Shown here one piece after another: positions 13,320-49,319 of a DNA stretch of 52,936 bases. The translations under genes were made by a program, and so were the position numbers. Location of the stretch: the sequence record MT764207.1; one strand, 5' to 3'. Position 1 is the first letter of the stretch; every line of letters begins with the position of its first letter. The notes under the pieces are model-generated. The model was given only the letters and a program-made list of their open reading frames with translations, did not search any database and was not told where the DNA came from. The stretch comes from Escherichia phage JEP7.

Positions 13320-14459
13320 ATGCCGTTGAATGTAAACCAGATTGTAAACGTTCAACTGAACAACACTCCAACTGGTATCAGCAAAGGTGACTTCGGTAAG
13401 CTGGCTCTTTTAACTCAGGACCCTGGCACTGCTTTTCCTGACAGCGAAAACGGACACTATGTTGAAATCGGCAGCTACTCTGAAGCCGAGTCTTATTGGG
13501 GTACTGGTTCAGTTGTGCTTGGCGCGTTGAAGATTTTCTTTGCACAATCTCCGCGTCCTCGTTCAGTAGTTATCGCCTCATGGAACAACACCTCTACTCT
13601 GGATGCGGCTATTAAAGCATTCAACGATGTGTACCCTGACTGGTATGTTCTGCGTCCGCTCCCACCTACTGGTGAGCTGTCTGACGATGACATCGATTTG
13701 CTGGCGTCAACTGTTGCTGCTTACGACAAAAAGCGTTGCAGCTATACTACCACTAAAGCAACTCATATTGAAAACAGCGACTCCAACCCGATTAAAGTTC
13801 TGGCTGGTAAAGGCTACAACAATATGTGGCTTCAGTACGATAAGAACAACCAGCACTACGCAGACATCTCTGCTATGGCGCGTGCTCTGTCTGTTAACTT
13901 CTCTGGTAACCGCACCACTATTACCATGAAGTTCAAACAAGAGCCTGGTATTACACCGAACAACACTTTAACGCTTACTGAAGCTAACAAGTGTAAAGCG
14001 CTGGGTATTAACTGGTACACCTACTACAGCACCTTTGCTATGCTTGCAGAAGGTACTGTCCTTGGTACGTCCAAGCCGCCGCGCTTCTGGGATGAAGTAC
14101 ACGGTCTAGACTGGTTCTGTAATGCAGTTCAGACTTACGTCTTCAACTCAATCGCTACGTCACCCACGAAGGTGCCGCAGACGAACAAAGGTCACGAGCG
14201 CCTTACCGGTGCTGCAGCTGTTGCTTGTCAGCAGGCTGTCGACAACGGCTTGGTTGCGCCTGGTATCTGGTACGGTGATGAGTTTGGTACACTGTCTTAT
14301 GGTGACCGACTCGAAACAGGTTTCTACATCTACATCCCTGACGTAGATGACCAGCCTCTGGATGAGCGTGAAGCTCGTCAGGCCGTTGTAATGCAAATCG
14401 CGATTAAGCTGGCTGGTGCAATCCACTCCAGCGACATCCTGATTAACTTCACTCGCTAA
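13320..14459 (+). CDS. tail sheath protein (putative)
   Basis: 379 aa, first gene of tail block, followed by a tube-sized gene, a frameshifted chaperone and the tape measure gene; assignment by gene order. Confidence 0.4.
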   Translation: MPLNVNQIVNVQLNNTPTGISKGDFGKLALLTQDPGTAFPDSENGHYVEIGSYSEAESYWGTGSVVLGALKIFFAQSPRPRSVVIASWNNTSTLDAAIKAFNDVYPDWYVLRPLPPTGELSDDDIDLLASTVAAYDKKRCSYTTTKATHIENSDSNPIKVLAGKGYNNMWLQYDKNNQHYADISAMARALSVNFSGNRTTITMKFKQEPGITPNNTLTLTEANKCKALGINWYTYYSTFAMLAEGTVLGTSKPPRFWDEVHGLDWFCNAVQTYVFNSIATSPTKVPQTNKGHERLTGAAAVACQQAVDNGLVAPGIWYGDEFGTLSYGDRLETGFYIYIPDVDDQPLDEREARQAVVMQIAIKLAGAIHSSDILINFTR

Positions 14460-14470
14460 GGAGCAGATCA

Positions 14471-14902
14471 ATGATCATCGATTCTTCTGAATGCGTGTTG
14501 AGCCTGAATGGTGTTCAGCTGTCCGACTGGGCAGACGGTGCCGATGTCATTGACGTGCAATGGGTGGACCCAGCTTCCACCTATCTTGCAGGCGCTGATG
14601 GCGGTGGTATCCAGATTATGAACCCGTCCAAAGCCATTAAGCTGACTATCAAAGTTAAGCAAAGTGGTCCGGACGCCAAATGGCTTAACGACCAATACAA
14701 CCTGCAGCGTAACAACATTCGTGGATTCGTCCCGTTTGTGCTGCAAGCTAAAGACCTGCTGAACCAGGATTTGGCATGGGGTAAAAAAGGTTACTTTACC
14801 GATGGTTCCCCGTGGACTCGTGGTAACGGCCATAACCCGACTACCTTCTCTATTGTGTTCCACCAAGGTGGCATGCAGTTGACTGAAGGCTTTGACCAGT
14901 AA
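14471..14902 (+). CDS. tail tube protein (putative)
   Basis: 143 aa, between sheath-sized gene and chaperone; synteny only. Confidence 0.4.
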   Translation: MIIDSSECVLSLNGVQLSDWADGADVIDVQWVDPASTYLAGADGGGIQIMNPSKAIKLTIKVKQSGPDAKWLNDQYNLQRNNIRGFVPFVLQAKDLLNQDLAWGKKGYFTDGSPWTRGNGHNPTTFSIVFHQGGMQLTEGFDQ

Positions 14903-14920: not shown

Positions 14921-15349
14921 ATGACTGAGCCCAAATCATTTGACATCGACGACGTAACGTACAACATGACACTCGCAAACGCGCTGCAAGCCTGGACAGT
15001 CCTGAAAAAAGCAGGTAAGCTGTTCAAAGGCATTGGCAACGCTGACATTGTGGGTAAAGACGGCAAAGTGGACGGTAAGAAAGCAATGCTGGTCCTGTTG
15101 GACGCTGTTCTGGAGAACGCAGGTTCTGACGAGATGACAGCTATTGAGGAATTAATCTTCCGCAATACTGTTGTTGTAGTTGATGGCAAACCGCGTAAGC
15201 TGTCTGACTGTAAAGACCAACACTTCAACGCATATCGTAGCCACATCTTCGGTGTGCTTAAGGAGGGATTGGTATATCAGTTCGCGGATTTTTTCAAAGG
15301 GAATGGCCTGTCAGGTCTAGCGGGTCTAGCCACGCCCTTGACGAAATAA
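14921..15349 (+). CDS. tail assembly chaperone (G-like, short form)
   Basis: 142 aa immediately upstream of tape measure gene; contains slippery heptamer T_TTT_TTC near its 3' end. Confidence 0.55.
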   Translation: MTEPKSFDIDDVTYNMTLANALQAWTVLKKAGKLFKGIGNADIVGKDGKVDGKKAMLVLLDAVLENAGSDEMTAIEELIFRNTVVVVDGKPRKLSDCKDQHFNAYRSHIFGVLKEGLVYQFADFFKGNGLSGLAGLATPLTK

Positions 15350-15531
15350 AACGCAAGCAACAGTCAGGGACGCAAGAAACTGACTGGTTCATTTGGCTTC
15401 CTATTCTCAAGGGTCATGTGACCCTTGCAGAATTAAAGTCGTCTTACAGCTTGTGTGATTTGTGCGACCTGCATATTGCTATTCTGGACTATGCCGAGTT
15501 AGAGGAAATCCATGGCGACCATAATCGATAG
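14921..15531 (+). CDS. tail assembly chaperone, -1 frameshift-extended form (GT-like)
   Basis: slippery site T_TTT_TTC at 15289-15295 in the zero frame; the -1 frame is open for 78 codons from 15295 to TAG at 15529-15531, filling the apparent gap before the tape measure gene. Confidence 0.5.
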
Positions 15532-17173
15532 CTTTCTGGTAACGCTTGAGAGTAAAGCCGATAGCGCAGGCTTTGACCTCTTCGACCAGCTGTCCCGCCG
15601 TTTTGTGATTACCCTCGGCGATGTAATCAATCTTGCTGAGCGTGCCGCTGGTGCGCTCGGTAGGATGTTTGCGCCTGCGTTAGAGGCTGACGTACTCGCC
15701 GCCAAGATTAAAGGCTTCGGCTACGACGTCGAATCGACGTGGAAAACGCTGATGGATATGTCTTTGCAAATGGGTACACCATTTCAAGAGGCACTAGACG
15801 GCTTTACTAAACTTAAAGCGTATGGCGTTGACCCGTTAAACGGTTCACTACAAATGCTCAAAACAATCACTGCTGCAACAGGCGGTGATTTGGCGCGTAC
15901 CATTGTTGCGTATGGCCAGGCAACTGCGATGGGTTCATTGCAGGGCCAGGAAAAGAACCAATTCATTAACGCCGGTGTTGACATCTGGGGCGCATTGTCC
16001 CGTTACACTGGTAAGAAGCTTGGCGAGCTTCAGGATATGATGCGGCAGAAGCAAATCACTGCCGACATACTGACTAGCGCGCTCAAACAAGAAGCCGAAC
16101 GTTTAAAACCAATTGCCCACGAAGTGTCGCAGACACTCAAAGCGCAGTTAACTAACCTGAGTACAATTTGGTATGCTGCTCGCTCTAAGATTACCCAGAC
16201 CCGAGTATGGGACGAGGTAACCAAAGGCGCGATAAATATGGTTAAGTCACTTACCGCAGTGCTTAACGATACCACACTTACTGCAGCATTTAAAAAGTTT
16301 GATGAAATTGTATTCAATACAATTGAAAATATAAAACGACTTATCTACGTTATCGGGGATAACTTCCCGTTAATGGTTGCAATAACTTCGTACGCACTAT
16401 TGGCACTTATTCCCGTGCTGACTAAGGTCGGCAATGCCTTTGTGGGTTTAGCTGCCAAAATACTTATGAACCCGCTTACGTGGATTGTACTTGCTATCGG
16501 CGCAGTTATTGCTGTACTCGCTGACCTCGATGATGCTCTGGCAGGACGTGAGACAGTTGTTAAGTGGTCAAAAGACGTTGTTGCTGCATGGGGAATTGTC
16601 AAGCAGTATATCGTAGTTATTGCAGACTTTATTCTGTCAATATTTGACGGCCGCTTATGGAACCGGCTCGGTAACTGGTGGCAAGGTTTCCTCGGCGAAG
16701 TTAAGCAAGGCATAGAGCAAATAAAGCTGTGGTTGTCTGAAGCACTTTACCAGCTGCCTGGCGGTAAGTTCCTGATGGCGTTGTTTGGTAAGCTCGATTC
16801 TACGCTTGGCTTTGCTGGCAACAAACTTGTGACAGGTGCTGAGGCCACTGTTAATGCTGTGTCGCCTACAACTGAGCAGGGCGGAAGCTTCTGGAGTAAG
16901 GCACTCAACTGGTCAATGCGTAACTTCAACCCTATCACAGGGGAGATGACAGCTGGGGGTCAGGCTATGCAGTCGGCGATAAATACTGCTAAGCAAAACC
17001 AGCAGCAGAACGCGACTGTTATCCACCAGGATAATAGCGTTAAAGTTGACGCTACTATTACCGGTGTACAGAACCCACAAGAAGTAGGTCGTGAGGTCAA
17101 TGACCAGGTCAAACAGGCGCAGAAAGAGAATGCTACTGTAAGGGCTAACAACAAAACGGCGGTAACACAATGA
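15512..17173 (+). CDS. tail tape measure protein
   Basis: 553 aa; Ala/Gln-rich helical protein with central hydrophobic segments (LMVAITSYALLALIPVL..., IVLAIGAVIAVLADL); directly after chaperone frameshift cassette. Confidence 0.65.
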   Translation: MATIIDSFLVTLESKADSAGFDLFDQLSRRFVITLGDVINLAERAAGALGRMFAPALEADVLAAKIKGFGYDVESTWKTLMDMSLQMGTPFQEALDGFTKLKAYGVDPLNGSLQMLKTITAATGGDLARTIVAYGQATAMGSLQGQEKNQFINAGVDIWGALSRYTGKKLGELQDMMRQKQITADILTSALKQEAERLKPIAHEVSQTLKAQLTNLSTIWYAARSKITQTRVWDEVTKGAINMVKSLTAVLNDTTLTAAFKKFDEIVFNTIENIKRLIYVIGDNFPLMVAITSYALLALIPVLTKVGNAFVGLAAKILMNPLTWIVLAIGAVIAVLADLDDALAGRETVVKWSKDVVAAWGIVKQYIVVIADFILSIFDGRLWNRLGNWWQGFLGEVKQGIEQIKLWLSEALYQLPGGKFLMALFGKLDSTLGFAGNKLVTGAEATVNAVSPTTEQGGSFWSKALNWSMRNFNPITGEMTAGGQAMQSAINTAKQNQQQNATVIHQDNSVKVDATITGVQNPQEVGREVNDQVKQAQKENATVRANNKTAVTQ

Positions 17174-18066
17174 GTGACATCTTTGCTGGAATTACTGATG
17201 CTGCCAACGACTTGTACCAAGAAGCCCGCGACAGACTCATGGGCGACGGTACGACCACCTTACGCTTCCGCAACTGCGGAGGCATTAAGATGGATGCTGT
17301 CACCAATGAGGAACATCAGTCTGACCTTGACATCGCTGACAATGAACTTGAGTCCGGGGCTAAGGCTTCGGACCATGCTGCAGTACAACCAAAAGTTATT
17401 ACTGTAACTGGCGTGGTAGTTGGTTATATCGACGAGTCAATTCAAGAGTCAACAATTAAGGATGTAACCGGTCTACGGTCTATGGATTTCTTGGATGATA
17501 TTCAGCTTCCACAGGTAGTGTCTACTGCGCTTGAAGGAACAAGGGACTTTGCTGTTAACAAGCTAGCATCCTTTATAGACTGGGGCGGTTTAGACGCTAC
17601 CATTTCACGCTCTTTAGTTCCATGGCTTCCTGACTTTAGTATAGCTGAACAGCTTAAGTCTTCGGACAATATGAGGATTGAACAGGTATACCGTACCTTG
17701 CTGGATTTACAGAAAAACGTTATCTACTGTGACGTTGACACTGGTATCTTCAAGTATACGAATATGCTTTTGAAGTCTGTTCGTGTTGTACAGGAGAAAG
17801 ACGGTTCAGCTACGTTTACCCTTACGTTCCGTGAAGTCATCGAAGTGCCGATTGTAGTTACAAACGCTGTAGCCGCTAAGTCGACAGGTCGCCCTGCTAA
17901 TAACGGCACTAAGAAAAGCGGACGTGCACAAGGACAGGGTGATGCCACCAGTAAGAAGGACATAAACACAACTACACCGATTAGCGAGAAACGTGTAAAC
18001 GATAACCGCGGTTTTGGTGTAACACTCGGTGACATGTTTGGCTTTAACTTACGAGGCATATTCTGA
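17170..18066 (+). CDS. tail/baseplate protein (putative)
   Basis: 298 aa ORF after tape measure gene; position only. Confidence 0.3.
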   Translation: MSDIFAGITDAANDLYQEARDRLMGDGTTTLRFRNCGGIKMDAVTNEEHQSDLDIADNELESGAKASDHAAVQPKVITVTGVVVGYIDESIQESTIKDVTGLRSMDFLDDIQLPQVVSTALEGTRDFAVNKLASFIDWGGLDATISRSLVPWLPDFSIAEQLKSSDNMRIEQVYRTLLDLQKNVIYCDVDTGIFKYTNMLLKSVRVVQEKDGSATFTLTFREVIEVPIVVTNAVAAKSTGRPANNGTKKSGRAQGQGDATSKKDINTTTPISEKRVNDNRGFGVTLGDMFGFNLRGIF

Positions 18067-18458
18067 TGATATTTACCACAACTGCTTTCCTTGACATTAT
18101 AGGTAATGATGGTTCTGGTATTTACGACTTGGAACCTACCTCCGAAGGTAAGCAATCAATATCAATTTCTATCGCTGGATATACGTATAACATTGAGTTG
18201 TACTATAACACGGTAGGTCAGCTCTGGCAGGCTACAGTGACTGACATATCAAGTAATGCTGTACTTTGTTCCAGTTATGCTTTACAATATGGGCGTATTG
18301 CTTTTGGTAACTGGGACACGCGTATAGCGTTGCTGGTAAGTGACAAATCCTCCAGCCGCATCGGTCCTATGACTACAGATGACATGGGAGGACGTTGCAG
18401 TGTCTACATCGTCGACAAAACAGCCTACCCGTCAGTTTGGCCGCGCGTTAAAGCTTGA
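18066..18458 (+). CDS. tail/baseplate protein (hypothetical)
   Basis: 130 aa; ATG overlaps upstream stop. Confidence 0.3.
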   Translation: MIFTTTAFLDIIGNDGSGIYDLEPTSEGKQSISISIAGYTYNIELYYNTVGQLWQATVTDISSNAVLCSSYALQYGRIAFGNWDTRIALLVSDKSSSRIGPMTTDDMGGRCSVYIVDKTAYPSVWPRVKA

Positions 18459-19359
18459 GGTCAGCAACGGTAAAGATGAAGGCATAATCATCTCAAATCT
18501 TCGTGTTACCTTTGACATTCAAAAGGGTAACACGAAGCATCCAAACAAAGCGACAATCACAGTGTTCAACTTGACTGAATCCAACCGTTATAAGTTGGCG
18601 TCAGGTACCTGGGATTACGTCCGTCTCTCTGTGGGTTACGGTCTTGACAACATAGTTTATCGTTTGATATTCGAAGGCGATATTACTCGTGCTAACGACC
18701 AACGAAACGGCCTTGACATTCAGACTGTTCTCGAATGCGGCGATGCCCGTAAATCTTACAACGATGGCTTTGTTAATACGACGCTGGCTGCTGGCTCTAC
18801 GTATGACAGTGTTGTTGACGTTTGCCTGGCTAGTATGCCAAGCGTTGAAGAAGGGTACGTCTGCCTTGACAGCAACAAACCAGCTTTCCTGAGAGCACGT
18901 ACTCTGTTCGGACAAACGCACAGTGTACTCGACCAGGTTGCTGCTGCCAACAAGGCTACCTGGTCTATACAAGACAATAAACTTAATATCATTCCTAATG
19001 ACTCTGTTACTGACTATGACGTTGTTGTGCTGTCAGAATCGTCTGGCATGATTGGTGCTCCTCGCGGCACAGACAAAGGTCTTGAGGTTACTTGCAACCT
19101 GAATCCTACTCTGGCCATTGGTGGTCTTGTACAAGTAAATTCTATGTTTACACAGTACAACGGACAGTATAAAATCGACACTATAAGATTTCGGGGTGAC
19201 AATAAACCGAAAGGACCGTGGCGTGCTGACTTGACGGTTCTTGGCGGACAGTTCGCGAAGAAAGTTCGTCGACTCAAGAAGCCACGCAAACTGTCGAAGA
19301 TTGAGTACGACTATGTTACTGAACCCGGTGTTGACCATACAGTAGGCGGAGGTAGCTGA
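18400..19359 (+). CDS. baseplate hub / tail protein (putative)
   Basis: GTG at 18400 preceded by GGGAGGA RBS (track ORF starts at ATG 18379, same frame); about 319 aa. Confidence 0.3.
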   Translation: MSTSSTKQPTRQFGRALKLEVSNGKDEGIIISNLRVTFDIQKGNTKHPNKATITVFNLTESNRYKLASGTWDYVRLSVGYGLDNIVYRLIFEGDITRANDQRNGLDIQTVLECGDARKSYNDGFVNTTLAAGSTYDSVVDVCLASMPSVEEGYVCLDSNKPAFLRARTLFGQTHSVLDQVAAANKATWSIQDNKLNIIPNDSVTDYDVVVLSESSGMIGAPRGTDKGLEVTCNLNPTLAIGGLVQVNSMFTQYNGQYKIDTIRFRGDNKPKGPWRADLTVLGGQFAKKVRRLKKPRKLSKIEYDYVTEPGVDHTVGGGS

Positions 19360-31482: not shown

Positions 31483-32047
31483 GCAGGGTGGCGTAAGGAG
31501 ATACAAGGCATCATAACTATGCAACCAGGCAGCGCATATGAGATTGGCCAAAAGATTTACCATTTTAATCCCCGCGACGAGACGAAAGGAGGTGCCATCA
31601 AGTAGCCAATCACATATGCGTTACTTGCTGTGTGCTCTCACCGCGGAAAGTATAGAGCGTTGCACTTATCACACCGATGGAGTGGCAAAAGCACACAGCA
31701 AGTACAACCTTAGTTGTGGTGTCTTAGCACCTGAGTTATTGTGGATAACCTGCACCCGACGGGTGTCAAAAAGATACGCCAAAACACCACAACTAAAATT
31801 GTGACCGCCGTCTACACCAGGCGCCTGGGGTCAAGGTAGCGAGCCAATACCCTTTTCAGCGTCGGAGGAATCGAACCTCACACATCACGGCTTTTACCAA
31901 ATCTCGGTCAGCGAGCAGAATTGAACTGCATTCACTGGACACCCTCACTGTTTCAACACACCAGGCTTAATTGATTGTTGATAAGAAGAGAGATGTAAGG
32001 ATGTCCATTGAATGCACCTCCGTAGAGGTGCGTTCAGATCAGCGCTA
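31483..32047 (-). ncRNA. candidate structured non-coding RNA / long 3' UTR
   Basis: about 570 nt without a credible ORF between the stop of 32048-32515 and the terminator; contains nested inverted repeats (CTTAGTTGTGGTGT ... ACACCACAACTAA enclosing CACCC-GAC-GGGTG), a 12-bp palindrome CCAGGCGCCTGG and a tRNA T-arm-like GAGGTTCGATTCCTC on the minus strand. Confidence 0.3.
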
Positions 32048-32515
32048 TTATTCAGCAACTTCTTCGTTGTCGCCTTCGATCGCGCCAGCCAGTTTAGCAG
32101 CTTCAGCTTTAGCAGCTTCTGCTTTCTGGCGAGCTTTTTCAGCTTTCTCTTCAGCTTTGCGAATCTGCTCAGCAGCTTTCGCTTCGGCTTTTTCAGCTTT
32201 GATGCGAGCACGCTCTTCAGCTTTACGCTGTTTTTCAGCGGCTTTAGCAGCATCGCGTTCTGCTTTAGCGGTATCAACACGCTTAGCCAGAACTTTACCA
32301 GTGGCTTTACGCCAGTAGGTCAGCTGGGAAGAAACAGTACCACGGGACATTTCGGTAGTGGCAACAACTTCGTCCATAACGTCAGAGCTGGACTTGCCTT
32401 CTTCATGGGCTTTATCAGCCAGGTCCCATACGTAACGTGCGCCAGTACCAGCTGCCGGATACAGTACGCCGTTAACTTCTTCTTTACCAGTTACAAAAGT
32501 CAGTTTCTCGCTCAT
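32048..32515 (-). CDS. Lys/Ala/Glu-repeat protein (histone H1-like, putative DNA-binding)
   Basis: ATG 32515 with GAGGA RBS; C-terminal third is KAAEK/AEKA low-complexity repeats; codon choice typical of highly expressed genes. Confidence 0.4.
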   Translation of the reverse strand: MSEKLTFVTGKEEVNGVLYPAAGTGARYVWDLADKAHEEGKSSSDVMDEVVATTEMSRGTVSSQLTYWRKATGKVLAKRVDTAKAERDAAKAAEKQRKAEERARIKAEKAEAKAAEQIRKAEEKAEKARQKAEAAKAEAAKLAGAIEGDNEEVAE

Positions 32516-32621
32516 AATTTTTTCCTCGTCTACAGGGCTTAATGTTTGTTCGTTACGTGAGTTAATATACGTCATTTAAAAGAGTGTGTAAACACCTTTT
32601 TTAAACTTTTTTCATTAGTGT

Positions 32622-49009: not shown

Positions 49010-49090
49010 GTAATCATTTCAATCGAAATAGGTGCGGCGGGGGTAATTTCGCAAGGGTGCTACCCGCCAGGAGCCAGCGGAATTTTTTTA
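49010..49090. repeat. GC-rich direct repeat, copy 2
   Basis: TAATCATTTCAATCGAAATAGG-TGCGGCGGGGGT...GGGTGCTAC...AGGAGCCAGCGGAATT followed by a T-run. Confidence 0.5.
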
Positions 49091-49319
49091 TTTTTTGGTA
49101 TTTTTGCCTTATCAGGACCAATCATCATCAGATTGATACAATAGGAGCTAACCTTTTGCCTAACACAATAATAAGTGAAGCCCCTCTAAAATTTTTTTTT
49201 ATATTTTTCGGAAATTGTGTAGACACTCACTAAAAAGTGGTGTACTTTCTCTCCTCCACGCGCTATCATTAATGTGAATCATCAAACGGCCTCACGGTCT
49301 CCTACTTGTGGGTAACATT

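What the first reader, a model, noticed from the sequence alone, without database searches (positions are those of the whole stretch)
15289..15531. Programmed -1 ribosomal frameshift in the tail assembly chaperone gene
The zero-frame codons GAT TTT TTC contain the slippery heptamer T_TTT_TTC at 15289-15295, 18 codons before the stop of the chaperone gene (14921-15349). The -1 frame is open from 15295 for 78 codons to TAG at 15529-15531, exactly filling the apparent 160-nt gap before the tape measure gene and overlapping its start at 15512. This is the conserved G/GT-type arrangement and explains why the gap shows no ORF in the track.
Basis: partly seen in the sequence, partly recalled or inferred. 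Interest (0 to 1): 0.45.

Follow-up and report, generated by a model that had tools for sequence, protein, structure and literature searches.

The report
Unannotated tail-chaperone ribosomal frameshift site
This phage's tail-assembly chaperone gene carries a conserved slippery sequence that very probably makes some ribosomes slip back one base and produce a longer second protein, the same trick known from lambda and P2, which nobody has annotated in this phage group.

Summary
GAT TTT TTC places the heptamer T_TTT_TTC at 15289-15295, in phase, inside the chaperone gene 14921-15349 (Pfam Phage_TAC_9, E=4e-33). That gene lies between the tail tube gene and the tape measure gene. The -1 frame runs 78 codons from 15295 to TAG 15529-15531 and ends 20 nt inside the tape measure gene.

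- About ten lineages down to 43% chaperone identity, and more distant Phage_TAC_9 members, all keep an in-phase T_TTT_TTN and a 74-79-codon -1 ORF ending at or inside the next gene.
- In one relative the heptamer has moved two codons.
- The gap evolves as protein-coding in the -1 frame (third position >> first > second).
- The conserved motif DWFIWLP lies upstream of the first possible start codon.
- The two-frame overlap is more conserved than its flanks.

Predicted products are G (142 aa, 15.4 kDa) and G-T (203 aa, 22.9 kDa).

This is a new member of a well-known kind (lambda G/GT, P2 E/E+E'). No public record inspected annotates it, and no held paper on these phages mentions it. The extension has no Pfam family. 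A downstream stimulatory hairpin is not established, and no protein evidence exists.

The parts
13320..14459 (+). Tail sheath gene (context)
   Evidence: PHROG 205 tail sheath E=9e-94; Pfam DUF3383/E217_gp31_N E=1e-72.
14471..14902 (+). Tail tube gene (context)
   Evidence: PHROG 280 E=5e-30. Pfam PF11681 (KPP10_Orf10 / Phage_Tube_PhiTE) E=3e-5, 24.4 bits, just under the curated cut-off of 25. Homologues in related loci carry PF11681.
14921..15349 (+). Chaperone gene G, zero-frame product of 142 aa (15.4 kDa)
   Evidence: Pfam Phage_TAC_9 E=3.7e-33 and Phage_TAC_15 E=1.7e-16; PHROG 6419 E=2e-51; mass.
15262..15349 (+). Overlap in which both the zero frame and the -1 frame are open. The shift must happen here.
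   Evidence: The heptamer plus the next 40 nt are 83-96% identical between lineages, against 58-83% in the flanking single-frame regions.
15289..15295 (+). Slippery heptamer T_TTT_TTC (GAT TTT TTC)
   Evidence: In-phase T_TTT_TTN is conserved in all relatives examined. U_UU.U_UU.C is listed among heptamers with more than 0.1% -1 shifting in E. coli without stimulators (PMC4066793).
15295..15531 (+). -1 frame extension (T part), 78 codons plus TAG. The fusion G-T is 14921-15295 joined to 15295-15531, 203 aa, 22.9 kDa.
   Evidence: Substitutions in the T-only part fall mainly on the third codon position, e.g. 10/5/21, 5/0/17 and 5/0/16, chi-square p=4e-3 to 3e-5.
15382..15480 (+). Conserved core of the T domain (DWFIWLPILKGHVTLAELKSSYSLCDLCDLHIA)
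   Evidence: Invariant D30 W31 F32 P36 L44 E46 L47 Y51 L53 L56 H60 in 9 lineages. The same core appears in about 31 further small ORFs from a search of 1.84 billion proteins. It matches PHROG 4364/3976/4625 'unknown function' and no Pfam family.
15418..15531 (+). Small 37-aa ORF (GTG start) that some public records annotate in the gap. Most likely an artefact that truncates the T domain.
   Evidence: Annotated in vB_SenM-1. It is the first ATG/GTG/TTG of the -1 frame and lies inside the conserved core. Start positions differ between relatives.
15297..15339 (+). Possible weak hairpin starting 2-4 nt after the heptamer (AGGG..UGGC / GCCA..CCCU). Not established as a stimulator.
   Evidence: -15.4 kcal/mol, z=-0.4 against shuffles. 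Almost no covariation. Within the top 3-17% of local windows in close lineages, but absent in L020, L022, L024 and P2.
15512..17173 (+). Tape measure gene. Its first 20 nt overlap the end of the T frame.
   Evidence: PHROG 29251 tail length tape measure, 1242 bits; Pfam TMP_3 E=3e-20.

Best explanation
The chaperone gene of this Rosemountvirus-type contractile-tailed phage encodes two proteins from one start codon. Most ribosomes read 14921-15349 and make G (142 aa). A minority slip one base back at U_UUU_UUC (15289-15295). The P-site and A-site tRNA-Phe move from UUU-UUC to UUU-UUU, both still Phe codons. These ribosomes then read 78 codons in the -1 frame to TAG 15529-31, giving the fusion G-T (203 aa). 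By analogy with lambda G/GT and P2 E/E+E', G and G-T would together chaperone the tape measure protein and recruit tube subunits, with the fixed low ratio set by slip efficiency. Shown here: the sequence signals, their deep conservation, and protein-coding selection on the -1 ORF, which has no start codon of its own. Inferred: that the fusion is made, that the slip is ribosomal, its efficiency, and the assembly role.
For: (1) The geometry is exact.
(2) The gene is a Phage_TAC_9 chaperone lying between the tube and tape measure genes.
(3) In-phase T_TTT_TTN plus a 74-79-codon -1 ORF ending at or inside the next gene is present in every relative examined. These are Rosemountvirus, Loughboroughvirus S144, the SOI901/fHy-Eco03/KE25/SE1_KM/L014 group, L015/L018, an Aggregatibacter prophage at 43% identity (where the -1 frame opens exactly at the heptamer), and L020, L022, L023 and L025.
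(4) In L024 the heptamer sits two codons upstream (CAT TTT TTG) while the usual DFL is GAT TTC TTA. Selection therefore acts on the slippery sequence and not only on the peptide.
(5) GAT is only 35% of Asp codons and TTT 50% of Phe codons in this phage's structural genes, so retaining NNT TTT TTN in about 10 lineages is very unlikely under neutral synonymous drift.
(6) Substitutions in the T-only region show third >> first > second codon position, p down to 3e-5.
(7) There is no ATG/GTG/TTG in the -1 frame before 15418, but the invariant DWF..P motif starts at 15382.
(8) The overlap is more conserved than its flanks, as expected for dual coding.
(9) The +1 frame closes within 4-13 nt of the G stop in four of the six relatives checked with a complete contig (49 nt in L024; the exceptions are L015 and L023).
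(10) P2 has the same sheath-tube-E-E'-T layout with T_TTT_TTG, annotated as a -1 frameshift.
(11) U_UU.U_UU.C is a recognised shift-prone heptamer in E. coli (PMC4066793).
Against: There is no protein-level evidence. The fHy-Eco03 particle proteome lists the G homologue (3 peptides, 5 PSMs) but nothing from the gap in the part of the table read. No convincing stimulatory RNA structure or conserved upstream SD-like element was found, so efficiency cannot be predicted. The T domain has no significant similarity to P2 E' (hhalign E=0.02, probability 2%) or to any Pfam family. The AlphaFold model of the T part has low confidence (pLDDT 53-68). A T6 run could in principle also give the same product through RNA polymerase slippage.
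Confidence: 0.88

Rival explanations
1. The same G-T fusion is made, but through transcriptional slippage. RNA polymerase adds one extra U in the T6 run, so a fraction of mRNAs carries the -1 frame in phase.
For: The site is a homopolymeric T6 run (T7 in the Aggregatibacter relative). Every conserved site found is a T run, with no mixed X_XXY_YYZ motif among them. No RNA stimulator for ribosomal slippage was found.
Against: From general knowledge, efficient transcriptional slippage usually needs runs of about 8-9 or more. The phage tolerates several other T6/A6-A7 runs, although their positions relative to genes were not checked. The run is always in the exact X_XXY_YYZ phase, and in L024 a full in-phase heptamer was re-created two codons upstream. 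U_UU.U_UU.C is a documented ribosomal shift motif.
Confidence: 0.06
2. The gap encodes an independent small protein, such as the 37-aa ORF from GTG 15418 annotated in vB_SenM-1, and the chaperone is not extended.
For: Some public records annotate 37-45 aa ORFs here. Gene callers produced about 31 such small ORFs in metagenomes. AAGGG lies 4 nt upstream of GTG 15418.
Against: The start positions are not conserved and often cut into the invariant DWFIWxP motif. In the window that motif (15382-15402) lies upstream of the first possible start. S144 has ATC (Ile), not a start codon, at the homologous position. Protein-level conservation extends back to the heptamer.
Confidence: 0.04
3. The heptamer and the open -1 frame are coincidental, and the 162-nt gap is non-coding spacer or regulatory sequence.
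For: There is no annotation in most records. FF is a conserved dipeptide that partly explains the T run.
Against: The gap shows a third-position-biased substitution pattern and amino-acid conservation across lineages with 58-70% nucleotide identity. The open frame is kept in every relative and always ends at or inside the next gene. The chance estimates are about 0.04 and 0.024.
Confidence: 0.02

Closest known systems
Phage P2 E / E+E' (-1 frameshift in the FETUD tail operon)
   Same: It is a contractile-tailed phage with the same order: sheath, tube, chaperone, -1 extension, tape measure. The slippery site is almost identical (GGT TTT TTG, T_TTT_TTG) near the end of the chaperone ORF. The extension has no start of its own and overlaps the tape measure start, by 8 nt in P2 and 20 nt here.
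   Different: The protein families differ. P2 E is Phage_TAC_7 and E' is Phage_P2_GpE. The window's G is Phage_TAC_9/15, and its T part matches no Pfam family. The similarity between T and E' is only a short motif (WFIWLP..TLAEL against IFHWPP..SLTEL) and is not significant. P2's E is 91 aa and E' 58 codons, against 142 aa and 78 codons here.
Phage lambda G / GT and the conserved tail-chaperone frameshift of long-tailed dsDNA phages (Levin 1993; Xu 2004; from own knowledge)
   Same: Two overlapping ORFs lie between the major tail/tube gene and the tape measure gene. A -1 slip on a heptamer gives a C-terminally extended minor product.
   Different: Lambda is non-contractile and slips on G_GGA_AAG. 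There is no detectable sequence relationship. Lambda's ratio of about 4% and the requirement for both proteins are experimental facts that have no counterpart here.
Phage Mu gp41 (chaperone upstream of tape measure gp42)
   Same: It has the same position between tube and tape measure, with a 144-nt gap. One record labels the window's tape measure homologue 'FluMu gp42'.
   Different: Mu gp41 belongs to Gp41_Mu/Phage_TAC_7, not TAC_9. It has no in-phase X_XXY_YYZ heptamer. Its -1 frame closes 38 nt after the stop, while its +1 frame extends 130 nt, so any recoding there would be of a different type.

Membership tests
G/GT-type tail assembly chaperone programmed frameshift | Chaperone ORF located between the tail tube (major tail) gene and the tape measure gene | tested here: met
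   The order is sheath 13320-14459, tube 14471-14902, chaperone 14921-15349, tape measure 15512-17173.
G/GT-type tail assembly chaperone programmed frameshift | Second ORF overlaps the 3' end of the first in another frame and lacks its own initiation signal | tested here: met
   The -1 frame is open 15262-15531. There is no ATG/GTG/TTG before 15418, which lies inside the conserved core.
G/GT-type tail assembly chaperone programmed frameshift | Slippery sequence, in phase, within the overlap | tested here: met
   T_TTT_TTC at 15289-15295 is the only X_XXY_YYZ heptamer in the overlap.
G/GT-type tail assembly chaperone programmed frameshift | Arrangement and slip site conserved among relatives, with the downstream frame under protein-coding selection | tested here: met
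   About 10 lineages keep T_TTT_TTN and the -1 ORF. Codon-position bias has p down to 3e-5.
G/GT-type tail assembly chaperone programmed frameshift | Fusion protein actually produced at a low fixed ratio to the short product | not testable with these tools
   This needs immunoblot, mass spectrometry or a reporter assay. The published fHy-Eco03 proteome lists only the G homologue in the part of the table read.
G/GT-type tail assembly chaperone programmed frameshift | Both products required for tail assembly and absent from mature virions | not testable with these tools
   This needs genetics. The fHy-Eco03 G homologue was found at low level (5 PSMs) in a particle preparation that also contained polymerase, helicase and terminase. 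That finding is not informative on virion membership.
Pfam Phage_TAC_9 (PF10876) / Phage_TAC_15 (PF21822) | Score above the curated cut-off of the family model | tested here: met
   115 bits against a cut-off of 25, and 61.3 bits against 22.
P2 E / E+E' family (Phage_TAC_7 PF10109 + Phage_P2_GpE PF06528) | Chaperone part matches PF10109 | tested here: not met
   There is no PF10109 hit for the window's G at E<=1. P2 E and Mu gp41 do hit it.
P2 E / E+E' family (Phage_TAC_7 PF10109 + Phage_P2_GpE PF06528) | Extension matches PF06528 or is demonstrably homologous to E' | tested here: not met
   There is no Pfam hit for 9 T sequences or 9 distant T-only ORFs. P2 E' itself scores E=2e-22. hhalign of the 35-sequence T profile against E' gives E=0.02, probability 2.3%.
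-1 PRF with RNA stimulator (dnaX / IS3 type) | Conserved downstream hairpin or pseudoknot, or an SD-like element 6-17 nt upstream | tested here: inconclusive
   The hairpin at 15297-15339 is no better than shuffles and shows little covariation. It is absent in distant relatives. AAGGAGG at 15261-67 lies 21 nt upstream and is not conserved.

The most novel reading that the evidence does not exclude
The frameshift may be a universal and so far undescribed property of the whole Phage_TAC_9/15 chaperone family, the family of E217/PhiTE-type contractile tails with DUF3383 sheaths. On this reading the family's conserved C-terminal F-[FL] dipeptide is the protein-level footprint of an obligatory T_TTT_TTN slip site. 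The extension would be a distinct domain of about 45 aa (DWFIWxP..TLxEL..Y[ST]LxDL..H) that is absent from Pfam and filed in PHROGs as several 'unknown function' families. Dozens to hundreds of orphan small ORFs in phage and prophage annotations would then be fragments of one recoded protein.
Probability: 0.55. Interest if true: 0.4.

Novelty: new member of a known kind. Interest (0 to 1): 0.3.

Why it matters
The finding corrects the annotation of a therapeutically popular group of Salmonella and E. coli phages (Rosemountvirus, Loughboroughvirus and relatives). In those records the 162-nt 'gap' is left empty or filled with a spurious 37-45 aa ORF. It adds one essential tail-assembly protein (G-T, 203 aa) to their proteome. 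It also links several PHROG 'unknown function' families to a defined role. Finally, it gives a simple rule (in-phase T_TTT_TTN at the conserved F-F/L of Phage_TAC_9 proteins) that annotation pipelines could apply. It does not change what is known about frameshifting or tail assembly in principle.

Tried and rejected
- **Natural single-ORF G-T fusions.** I looked for these as independent proof that T is joined to G. P0040 (204 aa, L020) looked like one. Its reading frame in fact changes about 25 codons upstream of the heptamer. The true G C-terminus (QYQYKDFL...) is in the other frame with GAT TTT TTA, so it is an indel or assembly artefact and simply another example of the usual arrangement. 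P0020/P0083 (L021) sit in a decayed prophage remnant next to a transposase and are uninformative.
- **Homology of the T part to P2 E'.** hhalign picks the register seen by eye but is not significant.
- **Structure route.** The AlphaFold2 model of G-T has mean pLDDT 69, with the T part at 53-68. Foldseek against the PDB gave nothing with E<0.09; the only plausible fold match was a protein of unknown function, 5ir0. I dropped this route.
- **Stimulatory RNA.** Single-sequence folds, RNAalifold and a comparison with local background windows gave no consistent signal.
- **Upstream SD-like stimulator.** AAGGAGG at 15261-67 is 21 nt away, outside the 6-17 nt range used in PMC4066793, and is not conserved.
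- **Peptide-pattern scan of IMG/VR.** It returned only 5 loci, four of which match the lengths of isolates already in hand.
- **Word-indexed protein search.** It returned only 7 hits. The full HMM search was far more useful.
- **Literature.** No held paper combines Rosemountvirus with frameshift. The S144 and fHy-Eco03 papers do not mention one.

Full report
**What the window is.** The region belongs to a Rosemountvirus-type contractile-tailed phage.
- The 680 bases around the finding are 100% identical to Salmonella phages zoltan and triss, and 98-99% identical to about 45 other Salmonella and Escherichia phages.
- The local gene order is sheath (13320-14459), tube (14471-14902), a 142-aa gene (14921-15349), a 162-nt stretch without a called ORF, then the tape measure gene (15512-17173).
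- The sheath matches DUF3383/E217_gp31_N and PHROG 'tail sheath'. The tube matches PF11681 marginally (24.4 bits against a cut-off of 25) and PHROG 280 at E=5e-30. The tape measure gene matches TMP_3 and PHROG 29251.
- The 142-aa protein is a bona fide tail assembly chaperone: Pfam Phage_TAC_9 at 115 bits (cut-off 25) and Phage_TAC_15 at 61 bits.

**Checking the observation.**
- Codons 123-125 of the chaperone are GAT TTT TTC, which puts T_TTT_TTC at 15289-15295 in the canonical X_XXY_YYZ phase.
- The -1 frame is open from 15262. From 15295 it gives 78 sense codons (QREWPVRSSGSSHALDEIKRKQQSGTQETDWFIWLPILKGHVTLAELKSSYSLCDLCDLHIAILDYAELEEIHGDHNR) and stops at TAG 15529-31, 20 nt inside the tape measure gene.
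- Across all ORFs of at least 100 aa on both strands there are 27 in-phase heptamers in 19,818 codons. About 0.04 would be expected in the 29-codon overlap.
- This is the only heptamer in a credible gene whose -1 frame runs far beyond the gene's stop. A random 78-codon open run has probability about 0.024.

**Is the -1 ORF a real coding sequence joined to the chaperone?** Five lines of comparative evidence say yes.

1. *Conservation of the arrangement.* I collected the locus from progressively more distant relatives:
   - Loughboroughvirus S144 (80% nucleotide identity);
   - the SOI901 / fHy-Eco03 / KE25 / SE1_KM / IMG-VR L014 group (67-69% nucleotide identity among the isolates);
   - two metagenomic contigs (L015, L018; 54-55% chaperone identity);
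   - an Aggregatibacter prophage (43% identity);
   - five still more distant Phage_TAC_9/15 members found with a profile search of 1.84 billion proteins (L020, L022-L025).

   Every one has an in-phase T_TTT_TTC/T/G/A. Every one has a -1 ORF of 74-79 codons (up to 81 in the most distant members) that ends at or inside the next gene; L025 could not be checked for this because its contig ends first. In the Aggregatibacter prophage the -1 frame opens exactly at the first base of the heptamer, which pins the shift site.

2. *Selection on the nucleotides themselves.* The codon before the run varies (GAT, GGT, CCT, CAT) but always ends in T, and the first Phe codon is always TTT. In this phage GAT is only 35% of Asp codons and TTT 50% of Phe codons. 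In L024 the usual DFL is GAT TTC TTA, which is not slippery, and a new CAT TTT TTG sits two codons upstream. The family-wide F-[FL] motif is what T_TTT_TTN encodes.

3. *Coding signature.* In the part of the gap where only the -1 frame could be coding, differences between lineages fall on codon positions 1/2/3 as follows: 10/5/21 (window against S144), 5/0/17 (SOI901 against KE25), 9/0/20 (fHy-Eco03 against KE25) and 5/0/16 (L015 against L018). The p values run from 4e-3 to 3e-5.

4. *No start codon of its own.* The -1 frame has no ATG, GTG or TTG before 15418. The invariant residues D30 W31 F32 P36 start at 15382. The 37-45-aa ORFs that some records annotate in the gap begin at different, non-homologous positions. 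The 31 small ORFs that gene callers produced in metagenomes start anywhere, often inside the DWFIWxP motif.

5. *Dual-coding footprint.* The heptamer plus the next 40 nt are 83-96% identical between lineages whose flanks are 58-83% identical. The alternative +1 frame closes within 4-13 nt of the G stop in four of the six relatives with a complete contig (49 nt in L024; L015 and L023 extend 130-166 nt).

**Mechanism.** The best-supported reading is tandem -1 slippage.
- Peptidyl-tRNA-Phe on UUU and aminoacyl-tRNA-Phe on UUC re-pair on UUU-UUU, both still Phe codons.
- Decoding resumes at CAA (15295-97). The products are G (142 aa, 15.4 kDa) and G-T (203 aa, 22.9 kDa).
- Sharma et al. list U_UU.U_UU.C among the heptamers that shift at more than 0.1% in E. 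coli without stimulators. They rank U_UU.C second among tetramers with the IS3 pseudoknot (PMC4066793).
- I could not establish a stimulator. A hairpin 2-4 nt downstream (15297-15339, -15 kcal/mol) is no better than shuffles. It shows almost no covariation in a region that is dual-coded anyway, and it is missing in distant relatives and in P2.
- The AAGGAGG at 15261-67 is 21 nt upstream and is not conserved.
- As far as I know, lambda's G-T site also works without a defined structure, so this does not weaken the case. It does leave the efficiency open.
- The functional role is inferred from lambda and P2, not tested. In that model the G part binds the tape measure, the T part recruits tube subunits, and the ratio is fixed by slip efficiency.

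**Rivals.**
- *Transcriptional slippage* on the T6 run would give the same protein and cannot be excluded by sequence alone. The run is short, it is always in exact phase, and it was re-created in phase in L024.
- *An independently initiated small protein* is contradicted by the missing or variable starts and by conservation upstream of them.
- *Coincidence* is contradicted by the coding signature.

**Comparison with what is known.**
- The closest analogue is P2 E/E+E'. The RefSeq record annotates a -1 shift at GGT TTT TTG, seven codons before the E stop. E' overlaps the start of T by 8 nt, in the same sheath-tube-chaperone-tape measure order.
- This locus works like P2 but is not a member of that protein family. 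P2 E and Mu gp41 are Phage_TAC_7 and E' is Phage_P2_GpE.
- The window's G is Phage_TAC_9/15, and its T part matches no Pfam family.
- The T part does match PHROGs 4364, 3976, 4625 and 16972, all labelled 'unknown function'.
- The resemblance between T and E' (WFIWLPILKGHVTLAEL against IFHWPPSELYPMSLTEL) is suggestive but not significant.
- Mu itself has no such heptamer, and its -1 frame closes quickly.

**Novelty.** Programmed frameshifting in tail chaperone genes is textbook, so this is a new member of a known kind.
- What appears to be new is its recognition in this group. None of the ten records I opened has a joined CDS.
- None of the 60 records listed (of 68 that match the T part by tblastn) shows a feature name pointing to a frameshift product under the match.
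- No held paper links Rosemountvirus with a frameshift, and the S144 and fHy-Eco03 papers are silent on it.
- The fHy-Eco03 particle proteome detected the G homologue weakly (3 peptides), in a preparation that also held replication enzymes. Nothing from the gap appeared in the part of the table read.

**Verdict.** This is a solid annotation correction and a useful family-wide rule, not a new principle.

Noticed in passing
window 15261-15267: A perfect SD-like AAGGAGG sits inside the chaperone gene (codons K-E-G), 21 nt upstream of the heptamer. This is too far for the 6-17 nt stimulator range used in PMC4066793. It is not conserved in S144, SOI901 or other relatives.
   Followed up: partly
L024 1572-1578 (Logan SRR10605996 contig): In this distant Phage_TAC_9 relative the slippery heptamer has moved two codons upstream (CAT TTT TTG at H-F-L). 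The usual D-F-L is encoded non-slippery as GAT TTC TTA. This is a natural 'relocation' of the slip site.
   Followed up: partly
L020 2001-2615 (ENA ERZ25039504 contig_85271, 267 kb): A gene call of 204 aa appears to fuse G and T in one ORF. The frame actually switches about 25 codons before the heptamer (near CATTTTCAAGG), and the real G C-terminus continues in the other frame. This is either an assembly indel or a genuine mutant prophage that makes only a G-T-like protein.
   Followed up: partly
L021 2001-2366 (ENA ERZ27235517 k119_140285): A chaperone fragment in which the G C-terminus and the T domain are in the same frame, next to a DDE transposase and with no tape measure gene nearby. It looks like a decayed prophage remnant. 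A related protein (P0083) differs from it by apparent internal frame changes.
   Followed up: no
window, whole length; public record OM313461.1: The window has exactly the length (52,936) and gene coordinates of Escherichia phage vB_EcoM_PiR. Yet it is only 98.8% identical to that record over 14921-15600, while it is 100% identical there to Salmonella phages zoltan and triss, which have different lengths and the opposite orientation.
   Followed up: no
window 32518-32524: A second in-phase TTTTTTC heptamer lies 5 codons before the stop of ORF 32012-32542. The -1 frame would add only 13 codons. No evidence was sought that it is used.
   Followed up: no
window 49083-49200: A cluster of long T runs (T7 at 49083, T6 at 49091, T9 at 49192), the longest homopolymers in the window. 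It was not examined and may be a terminator or intergenic region.
   Followed up: no
window 17170-17173 and 18379-18458: The tape measure stop overlaps the next gene's start (ATGA at 17170-17173). The listed ORF 18379-19359 overlaps 18066-18458 by 80 nt, so its true start is probably further downstream.
   Followed up: no
L026 4450-4617 (phage Mu, downstream of gp41): In Mu the +1 frame, not the -1 frame, stays open for 130 nt past the gp41 stop, almost to the tape measure start. No X_XXY_YYZ heptamer is present. If Mu recodes here it would be by a different type of shift.
   Followed up: no
fHy-Eco03 Gp34 (L007 536-994); PMC8145870 Table S6: The chaperone homologue was reported as 'virion associated' from LC-MS/MS (3 peptides, 5 PSMs). 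The same preparation contained DNA polymerase, helicase, thymidylate synthase and terminase, so the GenBank label 'putative structural protein' for this chaperone is doubtful.
   Followed up: partly
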